From: an uncultured bacterium | Lineage (GTDB): Bacteria; Babelota; Babeliae; Babelales; Vermiphilaceae | DNA: 64,000 nucleotides | Reading direction: 5' to 3' | Assembly (NCBI GenBank): GCA_963702025.1 | Contig: OY969699.1 | Span: 864,001 to 928,000, forward strand | Shown: positions 30,001-39,000 of the stretch, one piece after another | Layout: the number at the start of each line of letters is the position of its first letter | Position numbering within the stretch: position 1 is the first letter of the stretch | Position numbers: made by a program

Positions 30001-33000
30001 AGTAAAGAGGTTGTTATACGGCGGAGAGATCAGCTGGAACTGCCGCTAGAAAATACCGCTATGAAATCTGACGATCAAGAGATTTCACCTTTAGCATATC
30101 TGCAAGGTTTTTTTGGTACCATCGGGCTACTGGGTATCCCTTTCGCGGTGTTTATAGAATTGTTTGCGCCAAACAGTACTTATTCTTCCCAAAAAAAAGC
30201 TGCGTTACTTGCCGGCGCGGCAATAGCTGAAATCCCTTTTTTATGGATGGTGGCAAATTATGGCAAAGAAGTAGAAGAAAAGAAAAAGATCCGTGAAGCA
30301 AAATATGACAATGCGCTCAAAATACGGCAGATATTGTATGATAATCTCACTATTTCTGCAGAAATAATTAGATAAGCTGAGGTAATACACATGATAATAA
30401 TATGGGGCTCCCGATCAATCCGAAAAGATGAAATGAGTGCACATTTTGATTGTATGGCGTGCAATCAGCCACAAGAAATGAAAATAGTTTCTTTTCGCAG
30501 TTGGTTCACTTTTTTCTTTATACCTGTTTTTCCCACCTCGAAGAAAAAGTTTTACCTCGAATGCATCAACTGTGAAAATACCTATAAAATTAAAGATGAT
30601 ATAAAAATTGAAGAACTTTTAGAAAAAGAAAATGCTCGCTAATAGCTGCTCCATCCGTGCGGAGTTTATCCCGAGCTTTCTGTCGAAGGGCGCACTATAG
30701 AGGCGAACGGAAAAAATTTTTTACATATCCAAGTTGTATTCTTTGCAACGCCTATTTACTGAGGAGCGGTTAACACCCAAAAAAGTGGCTATTTTGTTCT
30801 GATTTTTAAATTTGTTCCAAAGCAGAACCATTATTTTTGGGTCACGTAACGCATGTTTGCCCAAGCGGCTGGCTTGCAGCAGTTCAGGGTCAGTAATTTC
30901 ATAGGCAGGATTAAAATGGATTTCTTGTTCAATATTATTCTTTTTCGATTTTTGTGCCAGTAATTGTTGAATGCGGACTTTGAGTTCTTGGAGGCTCAGT
31001 GGGCGATTCTCCATGAGCTTTTCGCATTCTTTTGGTGTTAAACCAAGCAAATTTTTAAAATCATTGGTGCCAATTGCTTGTTCTGAATATCCTTGTGCCA
31101 ATTCGCTCAATTCTGTGTCGGGCAATTGTGCCAGTGATGGCATACAAACGGCGCATTTTTTGAGTTCATTAAATAAGGAAGGAGAGAAGGCGCCTTGTTC
31201 AACGAGCTTTTCTAAGCTGCAATCGGTTGAACAAATAATGCGCACATTGGCGGATATCTTGTGTTCGCTTTTATAAACGCGATAATAACCGAATTTAATA
31301 AATTCAGCCAAATATTCCTGCAAATCAAGAGCAAGGTTCTCAATGTTTTGAATAAAAAGTGTGCCGGTGCCATCAAGTTTTTCAAGAACAGGTTTTTGCT
31401 GAGTCGGTGTGCCAAAAATAGGATTTATGCCTAAGAGTTTAGTTGCTAGCTCCAGAGTATTAGCAGATTCGGTGAGATTGAGTGTTAAGAGTGTTTCTCG
31501 CATGCTGATATGATGCAAAAGTTCCACCATGGGCATCAAATCTTGCTCGGGTAGCTCCAACAGTGTTGCCTTTTTGCTGAGTGCCGTTTGCAAAAGGCTA
31601 ATTTTGAAATGGAGCAATGTTTGCCCATTGCCCGGAATGAGCTGATTAATAAGCTGTCCCGGTTTGGTAGTTTCTAAATAGAGTACGTAATCCCAGGTTG
31701 AGGGATCTTTAAGGACTGAAATTTGTTTGGTAATAATATCGCCAATATCCGGATGACTCACTGTTATTATGACATTATTTTGTTCAAGATTCAGCACGCC
31801 CGTGATGCAATATCTATTGCCGATAGTATCTTTGGCAAGCAGCGATTGAGGCGATTTATATTCTTGCACTTGCCGTGCAACCTGACGAATTGTTTTGGCA
31901 ATCGGATGACCATGTTCGGTGTTGAGATTAAACTGAATCATCTCTTTGGCCGCATGGTTTGCACAAATAAAGCGTCTGTTTTTATAAAAAATTATGCCAA
32001 TCTCTTTATGTTTGGCATGGGTAAAAAAAGAACGGATACTTTCTTTATATTGATCAATCTCCTGATTTTTTTTATATAATTCTTCCTGCAGCTCTTTTTC
32101 CTGAAGAACAAGTTTTTCTATATTTCTATGTTGTAAAAGATGAAAGATGTTTCCTAAGTATTGCGCAAAAATGAGCATCTGATCCCGCTGTGTTGCGGTA
32201 TATAATGCAGTGGGCAACGCATTTGATTCAACGATAACGTAGGCAATTATGTGGTTTTTTTCAAAGATAGGCAGAAAAATATCAGCGTTAATGGTGCTCA
32301 AGAAATTAAGAATTTCAGAACGCTTAACATCTTCATCGTAAAAATTACTAAATGCTATCTCATCGTAAATAAGTATTTTATTTCGGCTAATAAAATCACA
32401 GATTTCTGATGAATGTGACGAGCAAAATTCTTCAACTATTGCATCGATGTGGGTTGTTTTAGAATCAGCATTGTTGCGCGTAAATAAGGAGATTTTAGCT
32501 TGTGGAATCGCGAATGCTTGTTTAAAAAAAGTGCTCGTGATTTGTCCCAATTCCTGCACCGATGTCGCAAAGCTTAACTGTTCAAGGATTATTCTAAAAT
32601 CGTCAACAAAGTTAAAGGGGTGCTTTGCTTCCACATGACTGGTAAAATTTAAAAACCGCATACCCATAATGCGATTGATACAGCAATAAACGATGTAGGT
32701 AATGAGTAGTGCCGATATTCCTTCAATAGCATAGGCATACGGCTTTATTACACTAAACTTGAAGTTGAACGCTATTAAGAGCTCGGTAGCAAGATAAGGC
32801 ATCATCAAATATTTAATGATAATAGAAAGTTGATGATTTAATATTTTTGGCAGTGTACCCGATCTGATTTTTTTCAAACATAGATATAGACTGGGCAGAA
32901 CCAGGAGTGCCAAAAAGTACTGAATTGTCAGTCTTATGAGAGTTGCTTCAAAAGAGATGTTAAATGCCTGAAGAGCATTAAGAGTATAGATATGCGACGT

Positions 33001-36000: not shown

Positions 36001-39000
36001 TATAGAAATGAAGATTTTTTGTCTAATGTTTATTTTGGAAACCGGCTCTATCAAATTTTCCAAAAATAAAGCTAATGATTGATATTCGATGGTATAAAAT
36101 ATCCATGAAAATCTTGTAAGAAAAAGAATAGTGGAATGTAATGTAAAACTAGGATCGACGATGATAAATTCTTTTGTAGCCAAAATGACCCATGCTAAAT
36201 CTTCACACACTGCCCCAATTAGTACTAAAACTAAATAATTGCGAGATTTATTTAGGGATGGAATGTGTATTTTTTGTGCAAAAAGGATAATCAGAATGTA
36301 GATTTTTATTAATAATGAAATTGTATTGATACTTATCAGAAATGGATAACTACCAAAAACTAGTTCGATCAAAGAAAAGATATTATTCATAAGGATAATA
36401 TTGCCATTAAAAAAGCTAATCGTTATAATAAAGATGGTTTTTAAAGGTATAAATCAGGAGTTTCATTATGCGTCGATTCGTTTTTCATTTTTATAAACTT
36501 TTAGATGCAAGATTATTGCTTGCTTTATTTGTACTTGCCTCGATAGTTCTTACTGATGGTCCTCCATCTGGTACATAATTTCATCCTATCACAATTCTAA
36601 CTTTTAACAAATAAAGCTTTTTGCTTCGTGGAGTGTCGGTGGATAAACAGGCTCGCGCTATTCGCATTATCGAAATTCTGCGTAAAGCAACAAAGGGCAT
36701 GGAACAGCCGGCTTCACTTCAAATTGTAAAGAGGTATGGAAAAGATCCGTACCTCGTTCTTGTGAGCTGTCTTTTGAGCTTGCGGACAAAAGATACAGTC
36801 TCTTTTCCTGCTTCTCAGCGACTTTTTGAACATGCCAGAAATCCTATAGAAATGCTCAAACTTCCCCTTCCAACCATAGAAAAACTTATTTATCCGACCG
36901 GTTTTTATCGAAGAAAAGCGCGTTTGCTGCACGAAGTAAGCGCTGATTTATTGCATCGTTTTAATGGCACGGTGCCGCACACCTTTGAGGAATTAACCTC
37001 GATAAAAGGGGTGGGAAATAAAACTGCCAATTTAGTTTTGGGTGTGGCCTTTGATATTCCTGCCATTTGTGTTGACACGCATGTTCATCGCATCTCTAAT
37101 CGTTTGGGACTGGTAAAAACTACCTCGGCCGACGAGACTGAGTTGGCACTTAAAAAATTACTCCCGAGCCGTTATTGGATTGAATTTAACCATTTGCTCG
37201 TGCTTTGGGGCCAAAATATTTGTGTCCCGATATCCCCATTTTGTTCAAAATGTGCCATTGCTGATCTTTGCCCTCGTGTTGGCGTGACCAGACATCGATG
37301 ACTTATGCATCGATAATAAATGCTTCGACGAGCTCAGCACGAACGGATTCGGGCTGGCTGGGGGCATCGAGGAATTTCAGCGTAATACAATAGGTTTTTA
37401 GCCATCACTTGTTTTATTCCATATACTCGACCGGTGGTTCATATTCATTGATGATTCGTGCAATTTCTGGGTGGCCCTGTTGCTCGGCCCAATTGGCTGC
37501 AGTATGTCGAGTACTATCCACTTTATCTGGATCAGCCCCATATTGAAGCAAATCTTTAACAATATTGGTATAACCATTAATTGCTGCGGTAATCAGTGGT
37601 GTTGATCCGGCATAGTCTGTGATGTTTGGATTTGATCCACGAATTAATAATAGCTTAACAAGGGGGAAATACCCTTTTCTTGCCGCTTGTAATAATGCCG
37701 TTTCATCATAATTGTTTTGGGCATCAAGGTTAGGTTCATATGGAAGGAGACGATATATCATATCAATATTGTTAGCTTGGACCGCTTTCATGAGAGGTGT
37801 GTCGCCGGTGATGATATCTTTTGTATTAACATCCACAACATCAGTTTGCAAAAGATCATCCACTAAATTTTTGGCCGTTGGTGTTCTTTCTTGCATGGTC
37901 AGCAAAAGAAGATTTTCAGCCTGCGCTTTAAGTTCCGGACTTGCTTTTAGTTTGGCGGCTAAGGCCTTACTTCCTGTTAGTAGTGAAAAAAGTTGTTTAA
38001 CAAACTCGGGAGCATTTGGCTCATTACTGTATTCTGCCAGCAAGAGTGCTTCAGATGCTTGTTTTTTTAATGCTTCGTTGGTATTAATTTGTGAGCTGAT
38101 AAGGTTGAAAATTCCTTTTAATCCTTGATTTTCAGCGTTCCATGCAGCAATGATGATATTGCCGTTGGTAAATTTGTTTGATATGGCAGTAAGCAGGTTG
38201 GCCAGAATTTCAGGATTTTTACTGATAATTGTTTTAAATACTGCATATTGATTTATGGGGGCAAATGCCTCTTCAATTGATTTTGCAGGCTCAACATAGT
38301 TGGCTATATATGTGTCTAAAAATGGCTTTGTTTGTCCCATTTCCATGCTATTTATTAAAGTTGCCTGCAGGGCAACTATGAGAACTAAAAGAATTTTTAA
38401 CTGATTTTGTGGTTTCATATTATTCACCTTTTTTTAAAATATCCTTTACTATTACTATTTTACTAACAAAGTAATTCAAATTGCAATAATTTTAAAGATT
38501 ATTCTTAGATTCTCGTTTTCCACCTGCTTTACCCTGTATTTAAAGACAAAAGCAGCAATATTATTGACAAATTGAGTTATCATCAGTTAGAATTTAGTAT
38601 AGATGAGACTAGGCTTAAAAAAGGGAATATGATGAAATTTTTATACTATTTTGCCACATTATTGATAATTGCCTGCCCTTTGCTTGCTATGGAGCTGCCG
38701 GGCAAACAAATAAAGAAACGAGCGGGTGAAGAAATTGAGCAAGAAAAGCCAACAAAAGTACCGGCTCTTGAAGTATGTCAAGAAAAAGAGATTGAAAAAT
38801 TGCAGGAAGAAGAATGGAAGCAAAAATCTGAATTTGAACAATTGCCTGATGAGATAAAGCAGCATATTTTCAGCTATTTAACAACATCGCGAGGTGCAAC
38901 TAAAGAAGCTCGTTTGCATGTAGCAGCAGAGAATATTAGATCCTTAGTAAGAACAAGTAAGGTATTTCAGTTGTTCTTGGATGATCAGCAAATTGCAGGT

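What a model noticed while it worked through the whole genome (the two positions that open the first line are those of the whole stretch)
30721..36390. Tandem membrane-anchored, ATPase-dead relatives of sigma-54 activators in a lineage without sigma-54
g00921 and g00922 (903/904 aa, 51% identical, side by side) have about eight N-terminal membrane helices, a ~350-residue middle part of no known family, a sigma-54-activator-type AAA+ domain that lacks both the Walker A motif and the GAFTGA loop, and a C-terminal Fis-type helix-turn-helix; the genome has RpoD as its only sigma factor. I read them as enhancer-binding proteins that outlived the loss of sigma-54 and were rebuilt into membrane-tethered one-component sensors acting on sigma-70 promoters without ATP hydrolysis, perhaps the switch between infective and replicating stages. 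New would be a membrane-integral, nucleotide-dead bEBP class conserved through a phylum.
Evidence so far: pfam.tsv: Sigma54_activat aa 640-763 covering profile 42-167 of 168 (E 5e-12), nothing else; Swiss-Prot TyrR/PspF 26-34% id over that part and the C-terminus. Regex for G.{4}GK[ST], G[AS]F[TS]GA, E[SL][EQ]LFG: no match; hydrophobic N-terminus read. Only Sigma70 domains on g00590; Sigma54_DBD PF04552: 0 matches at E<=1 here and 0 of 25 Babelales, 4 of 14 controls ring. Full-length homologues (query ~5-901, no stops) in 22 of 25 Babelales at E<=1e-10, as adjacent pairs in G005, G006, G007, G009, G020, G043.
(Added by a program. Inside this text positions count along the whole contig: contig position 864,001 is position 1 of the stretch shown here. 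"Call 12" and the like, gene names such as g00115 and contig names such as C1 are that model's own, and its searches are not shown. The text may have been shortened before it was handed on; [...] marks where a part breaks off. The agent that wrote the report below was given it as the finding of a first reader that could run no searches.)

Follow-up and report, generated by a model that had tools for sequence, protein, structure and literature searches.

The report
Seven-helix regulators paired with micropeptides
Two neighbouring genes of a parasitic Dependentiae bacterium encode seven-helix membrane proteins fused to a DNA-binding regulator whose ATP motor has lost its working residues, and each faces its own overlooked gene for a tiny export-type peptide, which makes the pairs a likely but untested new kind of bacterial peptide signalling.

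Summary
The two genes are real (904 and 908 aa, 50% identical). The membrane part has seven helices, not eight, and its model matches the GPCR fold. GAF-like, coiled-coil and PAS-like parts follow, then an enhancer-binding-protein AAA+ fold with no ATPase or sigma-54 motif in 0 of 145 homologues, then a highly conserved helix-turn-helix. Sigma-54 is over cut-off in 0 of 239 Babelota genomes. The family is in 172 of 239, so it is not phylum-wide.

It precedes 79 of 113 relatives against 0 in controls, travels with duplicated receptors, sometimes repeats its core, and lies between facing sigma-70 promoter motifs.

Best reading (0.6): an exported peptide is the ligand of a one-component membrane receptor. 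Binding, export, DNA targets and any life-cycle role are untested. This scan noted the family and the peptide before on other genomes. My paper searches found no description.

The parts
33676..36390 (-). Receptor-regulator 1 (904 aa): N-terminal helix 2-12, seven membrane helices 15-251, GAF-like 269-435, coiled coil 438-473, PAS-like 480-560, degenerate AAA+ about 595-832, helix-turn-helix 850-899
30721..33447 (-). Receptor-regulator 2 (908 aa; probable start 33432, 903 aa), same layout; belongs to a clade of downstream paralogues
36468..36578 (+). Unannotated 36-aa peptide gene facing away from receptor 1: Shine-Dalgarno, basic start, hydrophobic helix, tail DGPPSGT
33534..33620 (+). Unannotated 28-aa peptide gene facing away from receptor 2: Shine-Dalgarno, hydrophobic helix, tail DFPPPIG
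36401..36429 (+). Candidate sigma-70 promoter of peptide 1 (TTGCCA-17-TATAAT); its -35 box lies 10 nt from the start codon of receptor 1
   Evidence: (best of 30 sites in the region, 11 of 12)
33438..33466 (+). Candidate sigma-70 promoter of peptide 2 (TTGATC-17-TATACT)
36583..36591 (-). Candidate extended -10 promoter of receptor 1 (TGATAGGAT), just beyond the peptide stop; its transcript would run antisense through the peptide gene
33639..33647 (-). Candidate extended -10 promoter of receptor 2 (TGTTAGAAT), just beyond the peptide stop
36621..37301 (+). HhH-GPD DNA repair gene (endonuclease III type), conserved neighbour on the peptide strand
   Evidence: 62 of 72 loci

Best explanation
Each unit is a peptide-plus-receptor cassette. 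Shown in sequence: a small gene with its own ribosome-binding site and promoter motif encodes a hydrophobic leader followed by a short Pro-Pro core, head-to-head with a 7-helix / GAF-like / PAS-like / dead AAA+ / helix-turn-helix protein. Inferred: (1) the precursor crosses the inner membrane and is cut by signal peptidase I or the site-2 protease, releasing the core into the periplasm; (2) the core binds the outward-facing pocket of the seven-helix domain of its own receptor; (3) the change passes through the GAF-like domain and coiled coil to the AAA+ fold, which serves as a nucleotide-free oligomerisation spacer and positions the helix-turn-helix on sigma-70 promoters; (4) the facing promoter motifs make receptor and peptide transcripts overlap, so the two genes may regulate each other. 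The two paralogues would be two channels with different peptides. The likely use is sensing cell density or confinement.
For: Peptide gene upstream of 79 of 113 receptor genes by a strict filter; 0 of 113 on the same strand, 0 in 10 x 113 resampled sequences, and 2 of 1256 long ORFs of this genome, namely the two receptors. A signal-peptide-like ORF precedes 113 of 147 genes against 11 on the same strand and 5-11 in resamples. All four proline codons are used and 8 close pairs differ mostly at third positions (51, against 39 and 15). The core is repeated in 7 of 113 precursors, five times in L126. In other families up to 38 residues separate leader and core. In G013, 5 of 5 dispersed paralogues examined have their own peptide gene, four with a different tail motif. 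Core positions covary more with the outer half of the 7TM domain (mean z 0.60-0.64) than with the inner half or the GAF part (0.26-0.37; p 0.002), and leader positions do not (p 0.76). W67, R93 and W96 in the outer half are kept in 67, 62 and 66 of 67. The 7TM model (pLDDT 90) matches GPCR-fold chains in all 50 rows listed, Z 14.1-16.4. Signal peptidase I, a site-2 protease and Omp85 are encoded. Promoter motifs: 67 of 86 against 10-19 in resamples on the peptide strand, and 45 of 86 against 1-5 on the receptor strand.
Against: No experiment shows expression, export, cleavage or DNA binding. The strict filter was written after seeing the peptides; on a further set of 39 genes, mostly from other families, it passed only 14. 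34 of 147 receptor genes fail the relaxed filter, and about half of these show no candidate even by eye, many of them downstream paralogues. In most members the core follows the hydrophobic helix within 8 residues and some lack a clear small residue for cleavage (for example L-L-R-Y-P-P), which also fits an uncleaved anchor. The covariation is modest and not corrected for shared ancestry. No operator was found. Helical bundles can reach Z 13-14 by chance, GPCRs crowd the library, and Foldseek gave no match at E <= 0.001.
Confidence: 0.6

Rival explanations
1. The peptide is not released. It stays in the membrane as a single-pass accessory subunit or tethered ligand that sets receptor activity or stability, as ToxS and TcpH do for ToxR and TcpP, or as MgrB does for PhoQ (MgrB recalled). 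The pair then senses membrane or export state inside one cell.
For: In most members the Pro-Pro tail starts within 8 residues of the hydrophobic helix. No dedicated exporter or protease gene is among the conserved neighbours. Transmembrane regulators with a neighbouring partner protein are known (PMC10269533, table passage). Covariation with the outer face fits this too.
Against: Repeated cores and tandem peptide genes and Ala-x-Ala-like ends of the leader before longer polar tails in family f2, read by eye, point to processing. Leader positions show no covariation bias to either half of the 7TM domain.
Confidence: 0.2
2. The receptor is a stand-alone sensor of a host or environmental cue. The small ORF acts only in cis, by transcriptional interference with the receptor's long antisense leader or by ribosome pausing at Pro-Pro (EF-P dependence recalled).
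For: Facing promoter motifs put the receptor's 5' leader antisense over the whole peptide gene. Some receptor genes have no detectable peptide. Pro-Pro next to a stop codon is a known pausing context (recalled).
Against: A cis element would not need a conserved export-type leader, repeated cores, a paralogue-linked change of charge (all 10 R/K-x-P-P tails fall in the downstream-paralogue clade) or replacement of Pro-Pro by another motif in G013. At 25-40 residues the leader would still lie in the ribosome tunnel when Pro-Pro is read, unlike SecM-type monitors (recalled).
Confidence: 0.12
3. The small ORF is a type I toxin held in check by the antisense transcript, or a peptide aimed at the host, and is merely an output of the regulator.
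For: Small hydrophobic ORF with a strong promoter motif and an antisense promoter motif at its 3' end.
Against: No Pfam match of note for 72 peptides and no Rfam match in the region. The genome-wide scan finds no further convincing copy: 5 hits, 2 of them the cognate genes, 2 inside long ORFs, 1 weak. The gene is copied one-to-one with the receptor.
Confidence: 0.05

Closest known systems
Atypical, sigma-54-independent enhancer-binding proteins (VpsR, NtrX, TyrR, PhhR, HupR, HsfA; PMC6158489, passages read)
   Same: [quoted passage not shown]
   Different: Those are soluble (established knowledge). Here Walker A, Walker B, the arginine-finger motif and sensor II are all lost, seven membrane helices are fused in front, and a cognate peptide gene is attached.
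Rgg/SHP cassettes of streptococci (PMC4324310, passages read)
   Same: Short hydrophobic propeptide gene divergent from its regulator gene; membrane-protease processing; one-component logic.
   Different: SHP is re-imported and binds a soluble regulator. Here the receptor is an integral membrane protein of another fold, in a genome with an outer-membrane Omp85 gene.
AgrC/AgrD and similar two-component peptide systems (PMC5007282, passages read)
   Same: Peptide precursor sensed from outside by a membrane receptor.
   Different: No kinase, no receiver domain and no phosphorelay here; no AgrB-like gene among conserved neighbours.
Transmembrane transcription regulators: ToxR/ToxS, TcpP/TcpH, and Neisseria Rsp, a PilS sensor fused to the PilR DNA-binding domain (PMC10269533, passages read)
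   Same: Membrane-anchored DNA-binding protein, often with a neighbouring partner; Rsp is a sensor-to-output fusion.
   Different: Most are single-pass (56% in that paper). None in the passages read has a GPCR-like 7TM domain, a dead AAA+ fold and a micropeptide.
Prokaryotic 7TM sensors with a GPCR-like fold (HisKA_7TM kinases, diguanylate cyclases; PMC13581589, passages read)
   Same: Seven helices, N-terminus out, GPCR-like fold; the ESM Atlas gives HisKA_7TM clusters as leads (0.85 and 0.89).
   Different: The output is a DNA-binding domain, not an enzyme; no PF16927 match in 110 members; a candidate ligand gene lies next door.

Membership tests
Sigma-54-dependent enhancer-binding proteins | AAA+ fold of this family | tested here: met
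   PF00158 in 54 of 54 members; Z 17.6-19.5, rmsd 2.4-5.1 A, 167-234 aligned, rows 1-10
Sigma-54-dependent enhancer-binding proteins | GAFTGA loop | tested here: not met
   0 of 145; consensus LFG-I-N-P-L-F
Sigma-54-dependent enhancer-binding proteins | Walker A, Walker B, arginine-finger motif, sensor II | tested here: not met
   0 of 145 for each pattern; Walker B glutamate position is N in 126 of 145
Sigma-54-dependent enhancer-binding proteins | Sigma-54 in the genome | tested here: not met
   0 of 239 over cut-off for PF04963 and PF04552; 4 of 14 controls ring
Atypical sigma-70-type enhancer-binding proteins | Degenerate AAA+ plus C-terminal helix-turn-helix | tested here: met
   Helices 866-876, 879-886, 890-899 in the model; weak HTH_50 in 12 and HTH_8 in 11 of 54 at E <= 0.1; most conserved domain
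Atypical sigma-70-type enhancer-binding proteins | Binds DNA and regulates sigma-70 promoters | not testable with these tools
   No operator found
Transmembrane transcription regulators | Predicted membrane helices and a DNA-binding domain in one chain | tested here: met
   Seven helices with a positive-inside bias, 3.2-4.7 K/R inside against 0.4-1.4 outside; helix-turn-helix support is weak by Pfam
HisKA_7TM domain (PF16927) | Profile match | tested here: inconclusive
   0 of 110 at E <= 0.1, but Atlas leads at 0.85 and 0.89; no profile-profile comparison was run
GPCRs | Seven-helix bundle of GPCR arrangement | tested here: met
   Predicted model only: 50 of 50 rows GPCR or GPCR-fold, Z 14.1-16.4, rmsd 3.7-5.6 A, 216-248 aligned; Foldseek rows all GPCRs but best E 1.4e-3
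GPCRs | Coupling to a heterotrimeric G protein | not tested
   Not expected in a bacterium; the output domain is fused. Not filed as a GPCR.
RRNPP / Rgg-SHP | Divergent short hydrophobic propeptide gene | tested here: met
   79 of 113 strict
RRNPP / Rgg-SHP | Soluble receptor with a TPR-type peptide-binding domain (recalled) | tested here: not met
   Model shows 7TM, alpha/beta domains and AAA+; no such Pfam family among the 25 shown for 54 members
Two-component peptide systems (Agr, Com) | Histidine kinase and receiver domain | tested here: not met
   No receiver domain and no HisKA in this genome; the two HATPase_c hits lie in frames of 841 and 628 aa and were not examined
GAF and PAS domains (middle part) | Profile or fold match | tested here: inconclusive
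   GAF_2 in 5 of 54 at E <= 0.1; Atlas leads 0.82-0.86; strand-helix order fits; the PAS-like part is cleanly missing in G005; not folded alone

The most novel reading that the evidence does not exclude
Babelota use a peptide pheromone read by a GPCR-fold receptor that is wired directly to DNA through a dead AAA+ scaffold. It would be a one-component membrane peptide-signalling system in an outer-membrane bacterium, used to count siblings inside the host cell and time the change between replicating and infective forms, with paralogues and core variants giving private channels.
Probability: 0.3. Interest if true: 0.92.

Novelty: categorically new. Interest (0 to 1): 0.8.

Why it matters
The four quorum-sensing layouts in the review passage I read (PMC5007282) assign peptides to Gram-positive bacteria, read either by a re-importing soluble receptor or by a kinase. 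A peptide read at the membrane by a single-chain transcription factor fits none of them. Prokaryotic 7TM sensors with a GPCR-like fold are known from structure surveys, but I saw no ligand for them in the passages read; here a candidate ligand gene sits beside each receptor, so binding is directly testable with a synthetic peptide of about seven residues. This genome has one sigma factor and no two-component system, so the pair is a prime candidate for how these parasites change state. The database label 'sigma 54-interacting' is misleading in function.

Tried and rejected
Complex prediction of the 7TM domain with the 36-aa precursor gave no answer (scores 0.48, 0.15, 0.20; mark 0.32; controls not folded); it is not used either way. 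No RNA run was listed for 33300-37300. No Rfam match. No Pfam or NCBIfam family for the peptides or the 7TM part. A profile of the middle part found nothing among solved-structure sequences at E <= 10, and the fold searches of the whole model were filled by the AAA+ and 7TM parts. Microbial rhodopsins and other 7-helix folds are not in the 50 rows listed, which does not exclude them. Operator search: aligned promoter regions show only -35 and -10 boxes with a few flanking bases; a palindrome scan of 854 intergenic stretches gave mostly what look like repeat elements, not followed up; a matrix of the peptide promoter gave 7 intergenic hits against 0-3 in resamples, 2 of them the peptide promoters and the rest resembling ordinary strong promoters. 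Relatives outside the phylum: both protein searches were filled by family members, so the donor lineage is open; several loci carry submitter labels of other phyla, and the labelled ones in the tree fall inside the family. The 16 extra genomes are weak matches; the 5 examined are a different protein with a receiver domain. The careful tree did not finish; the quick tree is used. Paper searches with no relevant description: 0 papers; 0; 4; 2; 0; 35, 15 listed; 4; 3; 4. PMC6755734 was searched for Rsp with no occurrence. No supplements were read; the genome tables of PMC10269533 and PMC13581589 may list these proteins.
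Full report
Observation. The window holds two ORFs on the minus strand, 33676-36390 (904 aa) and 30721-33447 (908 aa), 50% identical over 877 residues. Pfam finds only Sigma54_activat and Sigma54_activ_2; NCBIfam gives PspF, TyrR, NtrX and DhaR far below their cut-offs. 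These are the only two copies in the genome. Named relatives are Dependentiae/Babeliales where the record gives an informative name; several carry other submitter labels.

The AAA+ part. Against LuxO and PspF, GAFTGA aligns to NQIFGT, Walker B LDE to IQN, the RxDLYYRL motif to SAALYNEL and WPGNxREL to KPASIQEL. In 145 aligned homologues, down to 32% identity, none has any of six motif patterns; the Walker A region reads L-[DEQN]-x-P-x-x-D with D in 144 of 145. I ran no live protein through the patterns; one search is the positive reference. The fold is intact (Z 17.6-19.5 to NtrX, DmpR, NtrC4, FleQ, VpsR) and conserved (mean top-residue frequency 0.55, against 0.37 for the membrane part and 0.72 for the helix-turn-helix region). 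It is therefore kept for structure, not decaying; loss of nucleotide binding is inferred. Sigma-54 domains are over cut-off in 0 of 239 phylum genomes. This genome has one Sigma70_r2 match over cut-off, no PF08281 match, no receiver domain and no HisKA.

Anatomy. The AlphaFold2 model (85 sequences, pLDDT 89.8, pTM 0.61) shows an N-terminal helix, seven membrane helices (15-251), an alpha/beta domain (269-435), a long helix (438-473), a second alpha/beta domain (480-560), the AAA+ fold and a helix-turn-helix. Lysine and arginine counts put the N-terminus outside and the C-terminus inside. GAF and PAS labels rest on weak evidence: GAF_2 in 5 of 54 members, Atlas leads, and a natural deletion of the PAS-like part in G005. 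The 7TM domain folded alone (pLDDT 90.4) matches GPCR or GPCR-fold chains in all 50 rows listed, Z 14.1-16.4 over 216-248 residues; Foldseek lists only GPCRs but none at E <= 0.001. The tool warns that helical bundles can reach Z 13-14 by chance. GPCR-like folds in prokaryotic kinases and cyclases are already reported (PMC13581589, passages), so the fold alone is not the novelty.

Distribution. The family is in 172 of 239 phylum genomes of at least 70% completeness (171 with the 7TM profile alone), 71 of 71 in the own family, and was not found in f4, f6, f13, f15, f16, f18 and f19. Four of these (f13, f16, f18, f19) instead carry a receiver-AAA+-HTH protein closest to NtrX (46 of 47 genomes) and a HisKA kinase (44 of 47). 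This may be a single split in the tree; it was not tested. The locus is fixed: of 72 loci, 62 have the HhH-GPD gene, 61 a XerC-like gene and 58 an MrdA-like gene (the latter two names read from the sequences). Here about 11 kb separate the pair from xerC-mrdA.

The missed part. Upstream of each receptor, on the other strand, lies a small ORF: 36468-36578 (36 aa) and 33534-33620 (28 aa). Of 115 distinct receptor genes, 113 had enough upstream DNA; 88 passed a loose and 79 a strict filter (ATG, ribosome-binding site, hydrophobic stretch, Pro-Pro within 8 residues of the stop). Strict controls: 0 of 113 on the same strand, 0 in ten resamplings, and 2 of 1256 long ORFs of this genome, the two receptors. 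The filter was written after seeing the peptides. On 39 further genes, mostly from other families and with two overlapping the first set, it passed 14. A relaxed filter for a signal-peptide-like ORF passed 113 of 147, against 11 on the same strand, 5-11 resampled, and 66 of 1256 in this genome; of the 34 misses about half show a candidate by eye and many of the rest are downstream paralogues. The ORFs behave as coding: all four proline codons are used, and in 8 disjoint close pairs the differences fall 51, 39 and 15 on codon positions 3, 1 and 2.

What the peptides look like. Lengths run from 18 to 69 aa; 99 of 113 have a basic residue in the first eight. Seven of 113 repeat the core, L126 five times, and four loci have two peptide genes in a row (L106, L043, L131, L135). 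In family f2 the leader is followed by longer polar tails. G013 has 9 receptor matches; all 5 loci examined carry a peptide gene, four ending in an EF-containing motif instead of Pro-Pro. So the peptide follows the receptor, not the repair gene. On a quick tree of 85 7TM domains, the downstream paralogues form a clade (SH-aLRT 96, 16 rows) that holds all 10 peptides with R or K two residues before Pro-Pro; this window's second peptide has D. In 67 dereplicated pairs the core covaries more with the outer half of the 7TM domain than with the inner half or the GAF part (p 0.002), and the leader does not (p 0.76). Columns and kin are not independent, so this is modest support.

Promoters. In 86 cassettes a sigma-70 motif on the peptide strand passes in 82 (67 at the tighter threshold, against 17 on the other strand and 10-19 resampled), with its -35 box next to the receptor's start codon. 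An extended -10 motif on the receptor strand lies just beyond the peptide stop in 45 of 86, against 1 and 1-5. Both are present at both window cassettes. If used, the receptor's 5' leader is antisense to the whole peptide gene. No operator emerged.

Mechanism. Best supported (0.6): the precursor is exported and cut, the core binds the outer pocket of its own receptor, where W67, R93 and W96 are conserved, and the fused cytoplasmic part regulates sigma-70 promoters without ATP. Signal peptidase I, a site-2 protease and Omp85 are encoded; these are common genes and only show that the route exists. Rivals are an uncleaved membrane partner (0.2), a stand-alone sensor with a cis-acting ORF (0.12), and a toxin or effector output (0.05).

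Comparison and novelty. It works like an atypical enhancer-binding protein at the output (PMC6158489, passages), like Rgg/SHP in gene layout (PMC4324310, passages), and like a transmembrane regulator in topology (PMC10269533, passages). It fails membership of the sigma-54 activators, the RRNPP family and the two-component peptide systems, and fits none of the four layouts in PMC5007282 (passages). Each part has a precedent; the combination has none in my searches (seen as listings except where passages are cited; the library lacks most subscription papers). Earlier notes of this scan describe the family on other genomes, and several the peptide. I found the peptide before these look-ups, and they are not counted as evidence.

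Verdict. Observation confirmed; interpretation partly supported and incomplete. Interest 0.8; categorically new as an architecture, with the ligand role at 0.6.

Noticed in passing
window 24895-29749 (+): A 1475-aa ORF without a clear Pfam family followed directly by a 139-aa CdiI-like immunity protein (PF24172, E 1e-32): probably a polymorphic toxin-immunity pair inserted between the regulators and xerC.
   Followed up: partly
window 23347-24917 (+): A 390-aa AAA ATPase with an intact Walker A motif and a 133-aa ORF precede the large ORF in what looks like one operon.
   Followed up: no
L033:865-2148 and orthologues: An NtrX-like receiver-AAA+-HTH protein with no GAFTGA visible in the five sequences read, between an ABC ATPase and a MoxR-like gene, plus an NtrY-like kinase elsewhere (name by my reading), in 46 and 44 of 47 genomes of four families that lack the 7TM regulator.
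   Followed up: partly
L043:1477-3867: G005 has a 796-aa receptor lacking the PAS-like part, with two long secreted-type peptide genes upstream and its stop overlapping the xerC-like start.
   Followed up: partly
L130, L132-L135 (G013): Expansion to 9 receptor matches at scattered sites; the peptides carry Gly-rich, often Cys-containing tails ending in an EF motif.
   Followed up: partly
L040, L042, L044-L049 (G169, G238); L010 (G171): Some copies are split by stops or frame changes; decay or sequencing error was not resolved.
   Followed up: no
window 37414-46819: A run of secreted-type proteins, several with ankyrin-like repeats by eye, on both strands beyond the repair gene.
   Followed up: no
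genome G000, intergenic stretches: Strongly over-represented short palindromes such as ATTGC-3-GCAAT (17 stretches against 0.4 expected), probably a repeat element.
   Followed up: no
genome G000:C1:858478-858594 (-), outside the window: A 38-codon intergenic ORF ending in Pro-Pro-Gly passes the strict filter weakly and has no receptor beside it.
   Followed up: no
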